From the NCBI RefSeq assembly GCF_009914755.1, contig NC_060927.1: DNA of 64,000 nt. One strand, 5' to 3'. This document shows, piece by piece, positions 49,383 through 53,210 of the stretch. This DNA comes from the human T2T-CHM13v2.0 reference genome, Homo sapiens. Under the pieces are notes generated by a model, which made no database searches, had not been told where the DNA came from, and saw nothing but the letters and a program-made list of their open reading frames with translations. Positions within the stretch are counted from its first letter, which is position 1. The number at the start of each line of letters is the position of its first letter. The position numbers and the translations under genes are program-made.

Positions 49383-52300
49383 TCAATTCCCACCTATTAG
49401 TGAGAATATGCGGTGTTTGGTTTTTTGTTCTTGCGATAGTTTACTGAGAATGATGGTTTCCAATTTCATCCATGTCCCTACAAAGGATATGAACTCATCA
49501 TTTTTTATGGCTGCATAGTATTCCATGGTGTATATGTGCCACATTTTCTTAATCCAGTCTATCATTGTTGGACATTTGGGTTGGTTCCAAGTCTTTGCTA
49601 TTGTGAATAGTGCCGCAATAAACATACGTGTGCATGTGTCTTTATAGCAGCATGATTTATACTCATTTGGGTATATACCCAGTAATGGGATGGCTGGGTC
49701 AAATGGTATTTCTAGTTCTAGATCCCTGAGGAATCGCCACACTGACTTCCACAATGGTTGAACTAGTTTACAGTCCCACCAACAGTGTAAAAGTGTTCCT
49801 ATTTCTCCGCATCCTCTCCAGCACCTGTTGTTTCCTGACTTTTTAATGATTGCCATTCTAACTGGTGTGAGATGATATCTCACAGTGGTTTTGATTTGCA
49901 TTTCTCTGATGGCCAGTGATGATGAGCATTTCTTCATGTGTTTTTTGGCTGCATAAATGTCTTCTTTTGAGAAGTGTCTGTTCATGTCCTTCGCCCACTT
50001 TTTGATGGGGTTGTTTGTTTTTTTCTTGTAAATTTGTTTGAGTTCATTGTAGATTCTGGATATTAGCCCTTTGTCAGATGAGTAGGTTGTGAAAATTTTC
50101 TCCCATTTTATAGGTTGCCTGTTCACTCTGATGGTAGTTTCTTTTGCTGTGCAGAAGCTCTTTAGTTTAATTAGATCCCATTTGTCAATTTTGTCTTTTG
50201 TTGCCATTGCTTTTGGTGTTTTGGACGTGAAGTCCTTGCCCACGCCTATGTCCTGAATGGTAATGCCTAGGTTTTCTTCTAGGGTTTTTATGGTTTTAGG
50301 TTTAACGTTTAAATCTTTAATCCATCTTGAATTAATTTTTGTATAAGGTGTAAGGAAGGGATCCAGTTTCAGCTTTCTACATATGGCTAGCCAGTTTTCC
50401 CAGCACCATTTATTAAATAGGGAATCCTTTCCCCATTGCTTGTTTTTCTCAGGTTTGTCAAAGATCAGATAGTTGTAGATATGCGGCATTATTTCTGAGG
50501 GCTCTGTTCTGTTCCATTGATCTATATGTCTGTTTTGGTACCAGTACCATGCTGTTTTGGTTACTGTAGCCTTGTAGTATAGTTTGAAGTCAGGTAGTGT
50601 GATGCCTCCAGCTTTGTTCTTTTGGCTTAGGATTGACTTGGCAATGCGGGCTCTTTTTTGGTTCCATATGAACTTTAAAGTAGTTTTTTCCAATTCTGTG
50701 AAGAAAGTCATTGGTAGCTTGATGGGGATGGCATTGAATCTGTAAATTACCTTGGGCAGTATGGCCATTTTCACGATATTGATTCTTCCTACCCATGAGC
50801 ATGGAATGTTCTTCCATTTGTTTGTCTCCTCTTTTATTTCCTTGAGCAGTGGTTTGTAGTTCTCCTTGAAGAGGTCCTTCACATCCCTTGTAAGTTGGAT
50901 TCCTAGGTATTTTATTCTCTTTGAAGCAATTGTGAATGGGAGTTCACCCATGATTTGGCTCTCTGTTTGTCTGTTGTTGGTGTATAAGAATGCTTGTGAT
51001 TTTTGTACATTGATTTTGTATCCTGAGACTTTGCTGAAGTTGCTTATCAGCTTAAGGAGATTTTGGGCTGAGACGATGGGGTTTTCTAGATAAACAATCA
51101 TGTCATCTGCAAACAGGGACAATTTGACTTCCTCTTTTCCTAATTGAATACCCTTTATTTCCTTCTCCTGCCTGATTGCCCTGGCCAGAACTTCCAACAC
51201 TATGTTGAATAGGAGTGGTGAGAGAGGGCATCCCTGTCTTGTGCCGGTTTTCAAAGGGAATGCTTCCAGTTTTTGCCCATTCAGTATGATATTGGCTGTG
51301 GGTTTGTCATAGATAGCTCTTATTATTTTGAAATATGTCCCATCAATACCTAATTTATTGAGAGTTTTTAGCATGAAGGGTTGTTGAATTTTGTCAAAGG
51401 CTTTTTCTGCATCTATTGAGATAATCATGTGGTTTTTGTCTTTGGCTCTGTTTATATGCTGGATTACATTTATTGATTTGCGTATATTGAACCAGCCTTG
51501 CATCCCAGGGATGAAGCCCACTTGATCATGGTGGATAAGCTTTTTGATGTGCTGCTGGATTCGGTTTGCCAGTATTTTATTGAGGATTTTTGCATCAATG
51601 TTCATCAAGGATATTGGTCTAAAATTCTCTTTTTTGGTTGTGTCTCTGCCCGGCTTTGGTATCAGAATGATGCTGGCCTCATAAAATGAGTTAGGGAGGA
51701 TTCCCTCTTTTTCTATTGATTGGAATAGTTTCAGAAGGAATGGTACCAGTTCCTCCATGTACCTCTGGTAGAATTCGGCTGTGAATCCATCTGGTCCTGG
51801 ACTCTTTTTGGTTGGTAAACTATTGATTATTGCCACAATTTCAGAGCCTGTTATTGGTCTATTCAGAGATTCAACTTCTTCCTGGTTTAGTCTTGGGAGA
51901 GTGTATGTGTCGAGGAATGTATCCATTTCGTCTAGATTTTCTAGTTTATTTGCGTAGAGGTGTTTGTAGTATTCTCTGATGGTAGTTTGTATTTCTGTGG
52001 GATCGGTGGTGATATCCCCTTTATCATTTTTTATTGTGTCTATTTGATTCTTCTCTCTTTTTTTCTTTATTAGTCTTGCTAGCGGTCTATCAATTTTGTT
52101 GATCCTTTCAAAAAACCAGCTCCTGGATTCATTGATTTTTTGAAGGGTTTTTTGTGTCTCTATTTCCTTCAGTTCTGCTCTGATTTTAGTTATTTCTTGC
52201 CTTCTGCTAGCTTTTGAATGTGTTTGCTCTTGCTTTTCTAGTTCTTTTAATTGTGATGTTAGGGTGTCAATTTTGGATCTTTCCTGCTTTCTCTTGTAGG

Positions 52301-53210
52301 CATTTAGTGCTATAAATTTCCCTCTACACACTGCTTTGAATGCGTCCCAGAGATTCTGGTATGTGGTGTCTTTGTTCTCGTTGGTTTCAAAGAACATCTT
52401 TATTTCTGCCTTCATTTCGTTATGTACCCAGTAGTCATTCAGGAGCAGGTTGTTCAGTTTCCATGTAGTTGAGCGGCTTTGAGTGAGATTCTTAATCCTG
52501 AGTTCTAGTTTGATTGCACTGTGGTCTGAGAGATAGTTTGTTATAATTTCTGTTCTTTTACATTTGCTGAGGAGAGCTTTACTTCCAACTATGTGGTCAA
52601 TTTTGGAATAGGTGTGGTGTGGTGCTGAAAAAAATGTATATTCTGTTGATTTGGGGTGGAGAGTTCTGTAGATGTCTATTAGGTCTGCTTGGTGCAGAGC
52701 TGAGTTCAATTCCTGGGTATCCTTGTTGACTTTCTGTCTCGTTGATCTGTCTAATGTTGACAGTGGGGTGTTAAAATCTCCCATTATTAATGTGTGGGAG
52801 TCTAAGTCTCTTTGTAGGTCACTGAGGACTTGCTTTATGAATCTGGGTGCTCCTGTATTGGGTGCATAAATATTTAGGATAGTTAGCTCCTCTTGTTGAA
52901 TTGATCCCTTTACCATTATGTAATGGCCTTCTTTGTCTCTTTTGATCTTTGTTGGTTTCAAGTCTGTTTTATCAGAGACTAGGATTGCAACCCCTGCCTT
53001 TTTTTGTTTTCCATTTGCTTGGTAGATCTTCCTCCATCCTTTTATTTTGAGCCTATGTGTGTCTCTGCACGTGAGATGGGTTTCCTGAATACAGCACACT
53101 GATGGGTCTTGACTCTTTATCCAACTTGCCAGTCTGTGTCTTTTAATTGCAGAATTTAGTCCATTTATATTTAAAGTTAATATTGTTATGTGTGAATTTG
53201 ATCCTGTCAT
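49383..53210 (-). CDS. LINE-1 ORF2p (endonuclease / reverse transcriptase), 1275 aa
   Basis: Uninterrupted; endonuclease motifs IQE, GDFN, KIDH and SDH; PIP box [10 protein letters not shown] motif FADD; C-terminal HCWWDC. Confidence 0.98.

What the first reader, a model, noticed from the sequence alone, without database searches (positions are those of the whole stretch)
49390..53097. Young intact L1HS shares patches of non-consensus variants with the dead L1 10.45 kb away: local gene conversion recoding ORF2p?
Seen: the two same-orientation elements share unusual bases at matched positions 52959/42509 (ORF2 F84L, KTDL), 50528/40078 (D895H, QNRH), 50110+50107+50090 / 39661+39658+39641 (T1034I, T1035K, A1041T, giving [11 protein letters not shown]) and 49398/38950 (silent). 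The third L1 in the window has the usual alleles where it overlaps (10731, 10728, 10711, 10019). Each patch is bounded by sites where the two copies differ, giving maximum tracts of about 52891-53097, 50489-50563, 50018-50176 and 49374-49411. Recalled knowledge: L1HS reads KTDF, QNRD and [11 protein letters not shown], and K1035 is an older-subfamily state, so the old copy looks like the donor. Inference: repeated short-tract non-allelic conversion wrote five amino-acid changes into a potentially active L1. This would be a neighbour-dependent route to allelic diversity or attenuation. Several shared changes are non-CpG transversions, so parallel mutation is unlikely. Read mixing during assembly remains a serious alternative.
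Basis: partly seen in the sequence, partly recalled or inferred. Interest (0 to 1): 0.85.

Follow-up and report, generated by a model that had tools for sequence, protein, structure and literature searches.

The report
Intact L1HS carrying its dead neighbour's bases
An intact young human L1 retrotransposon shares several rare bases with a dead L1 10 kb away, most likely because short stretches were copied across by gene conversion, a known process of which this is a clear but unproven example.

Summary
The young element Y (49154-55194, minus strand) is an intact Ta-type L1HS with its own target-site duplication. The old element O (38715-44234) is a dead older L1.

Y differs from its six closest Ta relatives at 20 columns within the part O covers, and 11 of these match O. 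They fall in at least 7 patches, each at most 38-207 bp long.

- Six of the 11 (50091, 50107, 50110, 51216, 53016, 54367) are older alleles still segregating among pre-Ta copies, so they do not point to O.
- 50090 and 51336 are CpG-type or older-subfamily states.
- 52959C also occurs in one unrelated Ta copy on chr2.

What does point to O is three rare non-CpG transversions: 49398T (18 copies against 7,545), 50528G (108 copies) and 52959C (75 against 8,017). Only Y and O combine any two of them. The chance of such matching is about 1e-4 to 6e-3, depending on the null used.

Best reading, at about 0.6: repeated short-tract non-allelic gene conversion from O into Y. This is a known kind of event, and direction and reality need long reads and ape orthologues.

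The parts
49154..55194 (-). Y: full-length, intact Ta-type L1HS (acceptor)
   Evidence: 3'UTR reads ACA plus G at the recalled Ta marker sites. Ta state at 43 of 46 Ta-vs-PA2 columns and at 13 of 14 real Ta-vs-pre-Ta columns. 30-34 mismatches to its six closest relatives.
49383..53210 (-). Y ORF2, 1275 aa, open
   Evidence: FADD at residue 700, a CX3CX7HX4C motif at 1130, and N14/E43/D145/D205/H230 are present (the residue list is recalled). Eight substitutions against 6 of 6 Ta relatives, five of them equal to O.
53274..54290 (-). Y ORF1, 338 aa, open
   Evidence: D112N and R117K against 6 of 6 Ta relatives; neither matches O.
49140..49153 (.). Y target-site duplication, 3' copy (14 bp)
   Evidence: The same 14-mer lies at 55195-55208.
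55195..55208 (.). Y target-site duplication, 5' copy
38715..44234 (-). O: old, dead L1 (GAG type, PA2/PA3 grade), candidate donor
   Evidence: GAG/A at the marker sites. 17 stops in ORF2 and 3 in ORF1. 178-196 mismatches to every other full-length copy compared. Its own 10-bp target-site duplication at 38705-38714 and 44235-44244. Lacks the stretch matching Y 54577-55098.
9769..10831 (-). Third L1, a 3' fragment (GAG type), with the usual alleles
49374..49411 (-). Patch 1: 49398T (silent), at most 38 bp
   Evidence: Bounds. Exact 21-mer counts are 18 for T against 7,545 for G. None of the 16 other carriers reads ACA: 14 GAG, 1 ACG, 1 not covered.
50018..50176 (-). Patch 2: 50090T, 50091G, 50107T, 50110A (A1041T, T1035K, T1034I), at most 159 bp
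   Evidence: The exact 41-mer is in 22 copies. Not specific to O.
50489..50563 (-). Patch 3: 50528G (D895H), at most 75 bp
   Evidence: 108 copies carry G, against 3,973 matches within 2 mismatches of the surrounding 55-mer. The 9 other exact 55-mer carriers are all old.
51189..51245 (-). Patch 4: 51216T (silent), at most 57 bp; an older allele
   Evidence: T in 2 of 5 pre-Ta and 3 of 6 PA2 copies.
51309..51354 (-). Patch 5: 51336T (silent, CpG transition), at most 46 bp
   Evidence: 385 copies carry T.
52891..53097 (-). Patch 6: 52959C (F84L) plus 53016T (silent, PA2 state), at most 207 bp. This is the longest identical run between Y and O.
   Evidence: 75 copies carry C against 8,017 with A. 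One other Ta copy carries C.
54354..54418 (-). Patch 7: 54367T (5'UTR, PA2 state), at most 65 bp
   Evidence: The combination 54353A+54367T is in 15 other copies, pre-Ta ones among them.

Best explanation
Y is a genuine, independently inserted, intact Ta-type L1HS. After it landed 10.45 kb from an older dead L1 (O) in the same orientation, short stretches of O were copied into Y by non-allelic (ectopic) gene conversion. This happened either as several separate short non-crossover-type events or as one repair event with patchy outcome. Shown: the shared bases, their rarity genome-wide, their absence from Y's close relatives, and the short bounds of each patch. Inferred: that copying, not coincidence, made them; that the direction was O to Y; and that the older-type alleles (patches 2, 4, 7, and 53016) came from O and not from Y's source lineage. 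The result is an intact ORF2 with up to five neighbour-derived substitutions. Their effect on activity is unknown.
For: (1) 11 of Y's 20 non-Ta columns in the O-covered part equal O. Five PA2 copies match only 4-5 of the same 20.
(2) Three matches are rare non-CpG transversions: 49398T 18 against 7,545; 52959C 75 against 8,017; 50528G 108 against about 4,000. On the printed lists, no copy other than Y and O combines any two of them.
(3) None of Y's 24 best full-length matches lies at any listed place for these alleles, and 0 of 6 sequenced relatives carries them.
(4) Null centred on Y: other older copies match Y's 11 novel alleles in 2 of 226 comparisons, whereas O matches 3 of 11 (P = 1.1e-4). 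With the three semi-common alleles added, P is about 1e-5 on rough frequencies.
(5) In the 14-sequence alignment Y alone shares 5 alleles exclusively with O. The six other Ta copies share 0 each.
(6) Direction: patches 2 and 6 join a rare or O-type base to older-state bases in single uninterrupted identity blocks. These are the two longest Y/O identity runs, 207 and 159 bp. O shows Ta-only states only at CpG sites.
(7) Plausibility: the bounds fit a geometric tract length with mean 46 bp (P = 0.15), the value estimated for human non-crossovers in PMC11844249 (passages read). A rate of 2.5e-7 per site per generation (10.1101/135152, abstract) over roughly 1e5 generations and 186 differences predicts a handful of converted sites; this arithmetic is mine. 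Elevated conversion between repeat copies under 10 kb apart is reported for Alu (PMC6598467, passage citing Aleshin and Zhi 2010).
(8) O is the only sizeable L1PA homologue from 39 kb left to 29 kb right of Y.
Against: (1) Six of the 11 matches are older alleles that segregate among five pre-Ta copies, so Y could have inherited them.
(2) 50090T and 51336T are CpG-type or older-subfamily states.
(3) 52959C is also in an unrelated Ta copy, L076 on chr2, which itself matches O at 6 of its 25 non-Ta columns, 2 of them novel.
(4) The null centred on O is much less kind: 4 of 116 private alleles of other young copies equal O, giving P = 0.003-0.006 for 3 of 11, and 0.035-0.045 if 52959C is counted as inherited.
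(5) At least 7 separate patches are needed even with conservative bounds. The fit to a 250-bp mean tract is poor (8e-5).
(6) Y and O never share more than 207 identical bases in a row, below the 400-bp perfect-homology model considered in 10.1101/135152 (section 7).
(7) There is no GC bias: 8 strong-to-weak against 2 weak-to-strong changes, compared with a 93/59 baseline (Fisher P = 0.32), whereas that paper reports strong GC bias.
(8) Y carries one older-type allele (50334A, 13 of 27 old loci) that O lacks.
(9) This pair was picked out by a scan of very many windows, so P values near 1e-3 are not decisive alone.
(10) Neither reads nor outgroups could be examined.
Confidence: 0.6

Rival explanations
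1. Inheritance plus coincidence. Y comes from a rare or early Ta lineage that kept older alleles at sites still polymorphic in pre-Ta elements. The two or three rare bases shared with O are parallel mutations.
For: The older alleles at 50107, 50110, 51216, 53016 and 54367 each occur in 1-3 of 5 pre-Ta copies. 54353A+54367T is in 15 other copies. 52959C recurs in Ta copy L076. L076, with no comparable L1 within 10 kb on either side, still matches O at 6 of 25 non-Ta columns. Pairs of unrelated old copies share up to 3 exclusive alleles in 2.5 kb. Site 53682 shows three different bases in Ta, Y and O, so hot spots exist. With the O-centred null and 52959 set aside, P is 0.035-0.045.
Against: No pre-Ta or Ta copy examined combines all the older alleles as Y does. 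Y holds the Ta state at 13 of 14 fixed Ta-vs-pre-Ta columns, so it is not an intermediate. The rare matches are non-CpG transversions with measured frequencies of 0.2%, 0.9% and at most 2.7%, a joint value of 5e-7 for a random copy. No sibling carrying Y's other private alleles was found: the only other exact carrier of 53941T+53957T is a PA2 copy.
Confidence: 0.25
2. Gene conversion in the other direction for the rare bases. 49398T, 50528G and 52959C arose in Y or its lineage and were copied into O.
For: The three rare alleles carry no direction signal of their own. No Ta-diagnostic site lies inside patches 1 and 3.
Against: O holds Ta-only states only at two CpG sites, 53237 and 54201, which are explained by parallel decay. 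In patch 6 the rare base sits in one identity block with 53016T, where it is Y that departs from its family. This direction leaves all of Y's older alleles unexplained.
Confidence: 0.1
3. Assembly or polishing artefact. Reads from O contaminated the consensus of Y.
For: Not testable here. The two copies are similar and close together.
Against: Each converted base is flanked within 12-90 bp by sites where Y keeps its own base. A misplaced read from O would carry those neighbouring O bases too. The copies differ at 186 sites over 5.4 kb. From general knowledge, not a call: the source is an effectively haploid long-read assembly whose reads span a 6-kb element into unique flanks.
Confidence: 0.05

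Closest known systems
Non-allelic gene conversion between neighbouring interspersed repeats (Alu; Aleshin and Zhi 2010, as cited in PMC6598467; review PMC8230782 seen in a search listing only)
   Same: Sequence exchange after insertion between nearby copies of a repeat family produces mosaics of subfamily-diagnostic bases. Rates are reported to be raised for copies less than 10 kb apart.
   Different: Here the acceptor is a 6-kb, coding-intact L1HS. The donor is 3.6% diverged, the spacing is 10.45 kb, and the evidence is one pair, not a genome-wide correlation.
Non-allelic gene conversion between human gene duplicates (Harpak et al., 10.1101/135152; abstract and section 7 read)
   Same: Donor-to-acceptor copying between paralogues on one chromosome. 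The per-site rate is high enough to predict a few converted sites in a pair of this age.
   Different: That study reports a mean tract of 250 bp and strong GC bias. Here the tracts are at most 38-207 bp and show no GC bias.
Repair of a break in a chromosomal LINE by conversion from endogenous LINEs (Tremblay et al. 2000, known here only through the passage in PMC1920257; the paper itself is not held)
   Same: L1 copies serve as repair templates for other L1 copies. PMC1920257 quotes tracts as short as 13 bp.
   Different: That was a cell-culture experiment in mouse cells with an induced break. Here the event is an inferred germline history.
Recombinant young L1s flagged in pangenome assemblies (PMC13192797; passages read, supplements closed)
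   Same: Young full-length L1s whose sequence mixes lineages: 35 of 2,267 site consensus sequences were removed as recombinants.
   Different: Those calls rest on breakpoint methods that find large blocks between donor groups. Single-base patches like these would probably escape them. I could not check whether this locus is on their list.

Membership tests
L1HS, Ta subset | ACA at the 3'UTR diagnostic triplet and G at the nearby marker (feature recalled from the literature) | tested here: met
   Y reads ACA and G. O and the third L1 read GAG and A.
L1HS, Ta subset | Overall closest to other Ta copies and shares their diagnostic bases | tested here: met
   30-34 mismatches to six Ta copies against 58-116 to the six older copies of that alignment (five PA2, one pre-Ta). 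Ta state at 43 of 46 and at 13 of 14 diagnostic columns.
Intact (potentially competent) L1 | Full length with both ORFs open and catalytic motifs present | tested here: met
   ORF1 338 aa and ORF2 1275 aa are open. Endonuclease residues, FADD and the Cys-rich motif are present. Activity itself is not testable here.
Non-allelic gene conversion | The acceptor carries donor-specific variants that are absent from the acceptor's own lineage | tested here: met
   49398T, 50528G and 52959C are in 0 of 6 sequenced relatives and at none of the 24 relatives' places. 52959C is however in one other Ta copy.
Non-allelic gene conversion | Sharing with the proposed donor exceeds sharing with other copies of the donor's kind | tested here: met
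   3 of 11 against 2 of 226. Weaker with the O-centred null, P = 0.003-0.006.
Non-allelic gene conversion | Contiguous tracts in which all donor/acceptor differences are converted | tested here: met
   Inside each patch Y and O are identical. But 5 of the 7 patches hold a single informative site, so this is a weak test.
Non-allelic gene conversion | GC-biased outcome | tested here: not met
   8 strong-to-weak, 2 weak-to-strong and 1 neutral change against a 93/59/24 baseline (Fisher P = 0.32). With 11 sites the test has little power.
Non-allelic gene conversion | Pre-event state known from outgroups or other haplotypes (donor had the allele, acceptor lacked it) | not testable with these tools
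   No ape genomes, other human assemblies or reads are held.

The most novel reading that the evidence does not exclude
Dead L1 copies act as local sequence reservoirs. Repeated micro-tract (tens of bp) non-allelic conversion from a nearby old copy rewrites the coding sequence of a live L1HS. Part of the known allele-to-allele variation in L1 activity would then depend on which old copies lie within about 10 kb, and such single-base patches would be systematically missed by block-based recombinant screens.
Probability: 0.3. Interest if true: 0.55.

Novelty: new member of a known kind. Interest (0 to 1): 0.35.

Why it matters
[quoted passage not shown] If neighbouring dead copies can overwrite codons of a live copy, a locus's competence depends partly on its neighbourhood. 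Subfamily or lineage trees built from single diagnostic bases would also be blurred. For this locus the practical point is smaller: it is a well-bounded candidate, with 11 sites and 7 patches, that pangenome and ape T2T data can confirm or dismiss in minutes.

Tried and rejected
- Sibling search with Y's own private pair 53941T+53957T. The only other exact carrier is a PA2 copy (L068), so it tells nothing about when the O-type bases arose.
- The 114-mer 50085-50198, meant to find Ta copies with the I-K haplotype. 50194T turned out not to be Ta-specific: 781 matches within 2 mismatches, with an exact match in an old copy 2 Mb away. The printed matches were also cut at 80 letters. The test was not diagnostic.
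- Using 50488A as a 'young' marker next to 50528G. It is a CpG-decay state, and the 9 other exact carriers are all old.
- First exclusive-sharing count. It was invalid because the panel held loci I had chosen for carrying the very alleles in question. I redid it without them.
- Looking for further donors. The 20 kb to the right of the window holds only a 300-bp, 78%-identical fragment.
- A second test case. The flanks of L076 hold only fragments of 77.6% and 86.5% identity, so there was no comparison to make.
- Conversion from Y into O. The two Ta-only states in O are CpG sites.
- Papers not held: PMC379164, PMC85044, PMC2950799.
- Literature searches turned up no paper describing a neighbour-derived recoding of an intact L1HS. 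PMC12350169 mentions gene conversion only at gene loci.
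Full report
**What is there**

The window holds three L1 copies on the minus strand.
- Y (49154-55194) is full length, with a 14-bp target-site duplication (49140-49153 and 55195-55208). Both reading frames are open: ORF1 338 aa and ORF2 1275 aa.
- O (38715-44234) has its own 10-bp duplication. It has 17 stops in ORF2 and 3 in ORF1, and it lacks the 5'UTR stretch matching Y 54577-55098.
- The third copy (9769-10831) is a 1-kb 3' fragment.
- Y and O align at 96.386% over 5,423 columns with 186 mismatches.
- At the 3'UTR marker sites Y reads ACA and G, the Ta pattern as I recall it from the literature. O and the third copy read GAG and A.
- The two elements are therefore separate insertions of different ages, 10.45 kb apart.

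**Check of the observation**

- Against six of Y's best full-length matches in the same genome (L031-L036, all ACA), Y's ORF2 differs by F84L, E427D, D895H, M995T, T1034I, T1035K, A1041T and M1110V. ORF1 differs by D112N and R117K.

**The fuller picture**

- Y differs from at least 5 of the 6 relatives at 26 alignment columns.
  - Two lie in the A-rich tail, two lie in the stretch O lacks, and one is the terminal column.
  - 55141 lies beyond O's deletion and does not match O.
  - In the O-covered range 49172-54576 there are 20 such columns, and 11 equal O: 49398, 50090, 50091, 50107, 50110, 50528, 51216, 51336, 52959, 53016 and 54367.
- The 11 matches fall in 7 patches, bounded by Y/O differences to at most 38, 159, 75, 57, 46, 207 and 65 bp.
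- Counting only subfamily-level differences as bounds, which surely predate Y, the patches still stay separate: at most 165, 261, 154, 170, 510, 280 and 90 bp.
- The two multi-site patches are the two longest identical runs between Y and O.

**Which matches actually point to O**

Older alleles, not specific to O:
- 53016T and 54367T are the PA2 state, in 5 of 5 PA2 copies.
- 50107T is the usual older state, in 16 of 19 old copies chosen on other sites.
- 50091G is common in older copies (13 of 19) and present in one Ta relative. 51216T is in 3 of 6 PA2 and 2 of 5 pre-Ta copies.
- Among five pre-Ta (ACG) copies, the older alleles at 50107, 50110, 51216, 53016 and 54367 each occur in 1-3 copies, in combinations that no simple tree fits.
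- 54353A+54367T is in 15 other copies.

CpG or older-subfamily states:
- 51336T is a CpG transition found in 385 copies.
- 50090T belongs to an abundant older haplotype.

Cluster 50090-50110:
- The exact 41-mer across the cluster is in only 22 copies.
- Two of those, on chr18 and 2 Mb away on chr3, have longer identity blocks with Y (183 bp) than O has (159 bp).
- So this cluster fits O but does not single it out.

The three rare transversions:
- 49398T has 18 exact 21-mers against 7,545 for G.
- 52959C has 75 against 8,017.
- 50528G has 108, against 3,973 matches within two mismatches of the surrounding 55-mer.
- On the printed place lists (all 18, all 75, and 100 of 108), only Y and O combine any two of these.
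- None of the 16 other 49398T carriers reads ACA: 14 GAG, 1 ACG on chrY, 1 not covered. One of the GAG loci was projected onto a different hit and did not show T.
- The nine other exact carriers of the 50528G 55-mer are all GAG or AAG.
- 52959C has one other young carrier, L076 on chr2. It is an ACA copy that shares only 52959C and 50091G with Y among its 44 non-Ta columns.

**How far from chance**

- Y-centred null. I took Y's 11 novel alleles, meaning those not seen as older states. Thirty region-limited loci and eight full-length older copies, none chosen on these sites, match them in 2 of 226 comparisons. O matches 3 of 11, giving P = 1.1e-4.
- O-centred null. Among twelve other young copies, 4 of 116 panel-private alleles equal O. 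Over all 19 controls the figure is 15 of 343. This gives P = 0.003-0.006 for 3 of 11, and 0.035-0.045 if 52959C is treated as inherited.
- Adding the three semi-common matches (50110A, 51336T, 50090T) gives about 1e-5, on rough frequencies.
- In the first 14-sequence alignment Y shares 5 alleles exclusively with O, and the six other Ta copies share none.
- A caution: L076, far from O, matches O at 6 of its 25 non-Ta columns, two of them novel. Unrelated old copies share up to 3 exclusive alleles in 2.5 kb. Parallel change in L1 is therefore commoner than a uniform model predicts.
- The pair was also selected from a very large scan, so P values near 1e-3 are not decisive alone.

**Mechanism**

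The best reading is non-allelic gene conversion from O into Y.

Direction:
- In patches 2 and 6 the O-type or rare bases sit in one uninterrupted identity block with bases where it is Y that departs from its own family.
- O shows Ta-only states only at two CpG sites.

Tract length:
- The bounds are compatible with a geometric distribution of mean 46 bp (P = 0.15). That is the value estimated for human non-crossovers from sperm long reads in PMC11844249 (passages read).
- They are not compatible with a 250-bp mean (P = 8e-5).

Rate (my inference):
- I took 2.5e-7 conversions per site per generation (10.1101/135152, abstract), about 1e5 generations, and 186 differing sites.
- That predicts roughly five converted sites, the right order of magnitude.

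Points against:
- There is no GC bias: 8 strong-to-weak and 2 weak-to-strong changes against a 93/59 baseline, P = 0.32.
- No identical run between Y and O exceeds 207 bp.
- Seven patches are required.
- Y carries one older-type allele (50334A) that O lacks.

A single break repaired with repeated template switching, or patchy mismatch correction, would also give this pattern. I cannot tell these apart.

**Rivals**

- Inheritance from a rare Ta lineage plus parallel mutation remains possible, at about 0.25.
- Reverse direction for the three rare bases: about 0.1.
- Artefact: about 0.05. Isolated single-base patches flanked within 12-90 bp by unconverted differences are not what misplaced reads would produce, but I could not look at reads.

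**Comparison with what is known**

- Exchange between neighbouring repeats after insertion is established for Alu, with higher rates below 10 kb (PMC6598467, passages).
- L1 copies can template the repair of other L1 copies, with very short tracts (PMC1920257, passage citing Tremblay et al. 2000; the original is not held).
- A 2026 pangenome study removed 35 of 2,267 young L1 site consensus sequences as recombinants, using block-based methods (PMC13192797, passages; supplements closed).
- Seven literature searches found no description of a neighbour-derived recoding of an intact L1HS.
- This is therefore a new instance of a known process, of moderate interest. Its main value is as a sharply bounded test case.

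Noticed in passing
L005+L071, L008+L072, L073+L030, L042, L075 (pre-Ta copies), at columns matching window 50107, 50110, 51216, 53016, 54367: Five ACG-type (pre-Ta) copies carry the older and younger alleles at these five sites in combinations that no single tree fits. For example, 53016/54367 appear as G/T, G/G and T/G, and as T/T in PA2. This suggests recombination, conversion or recurrent change among young L1 lineages in general.
   Followed up: partly
L076 (G000:C2:214052338-214058371): An ACA-type Ta copy with 44 non-consensus columns carries 52959C (F84L), like Y and O. It also matches O at 51402 and 54419, although only fragments of 77.6% and 86.5% identity lie within 10 kb of it.
   Followed up: partly
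window 53682 (Y ORF1) and its match in O: Three different bases occur at one column: C in 6 of 6 Ta and all PA2/pre-Ta copies, A in Y, T in O. This is a possible mutation hot spot.
   Followed up: no
L028 and L029 (G000:C12, about 55.27 and 55.13 Mb): Two old L1 copies 140 kb apart share 3 alleles found in no other panel member over 2.5 kb, as many as any pair in the panel. This could be a duplication or an exchange between them.
   Followed up: no
L002 (G000:C3:159795757-159795870), 2.07 Mb from Y on the same chromosome: An old GAG-type, 5'-truncated copy is identical to Y over the whole 114-mer 50085-50198 and also carries 50334A, which O lacks.
   Followed up: partly
window 38715-44234 (O), opposite Y 54577-55098: O has an internal 5'UTR deletion of about 520 bp relative to Y.
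   Followed up: no
L069, about 5.6-5.9 kb beyond the right end of the window: A 300-bp fragment, 78% identical to the L1 3' end and in the opposite orientation, is the only L1-like match in the 20 kb to the right of the window.
   Followed up: no
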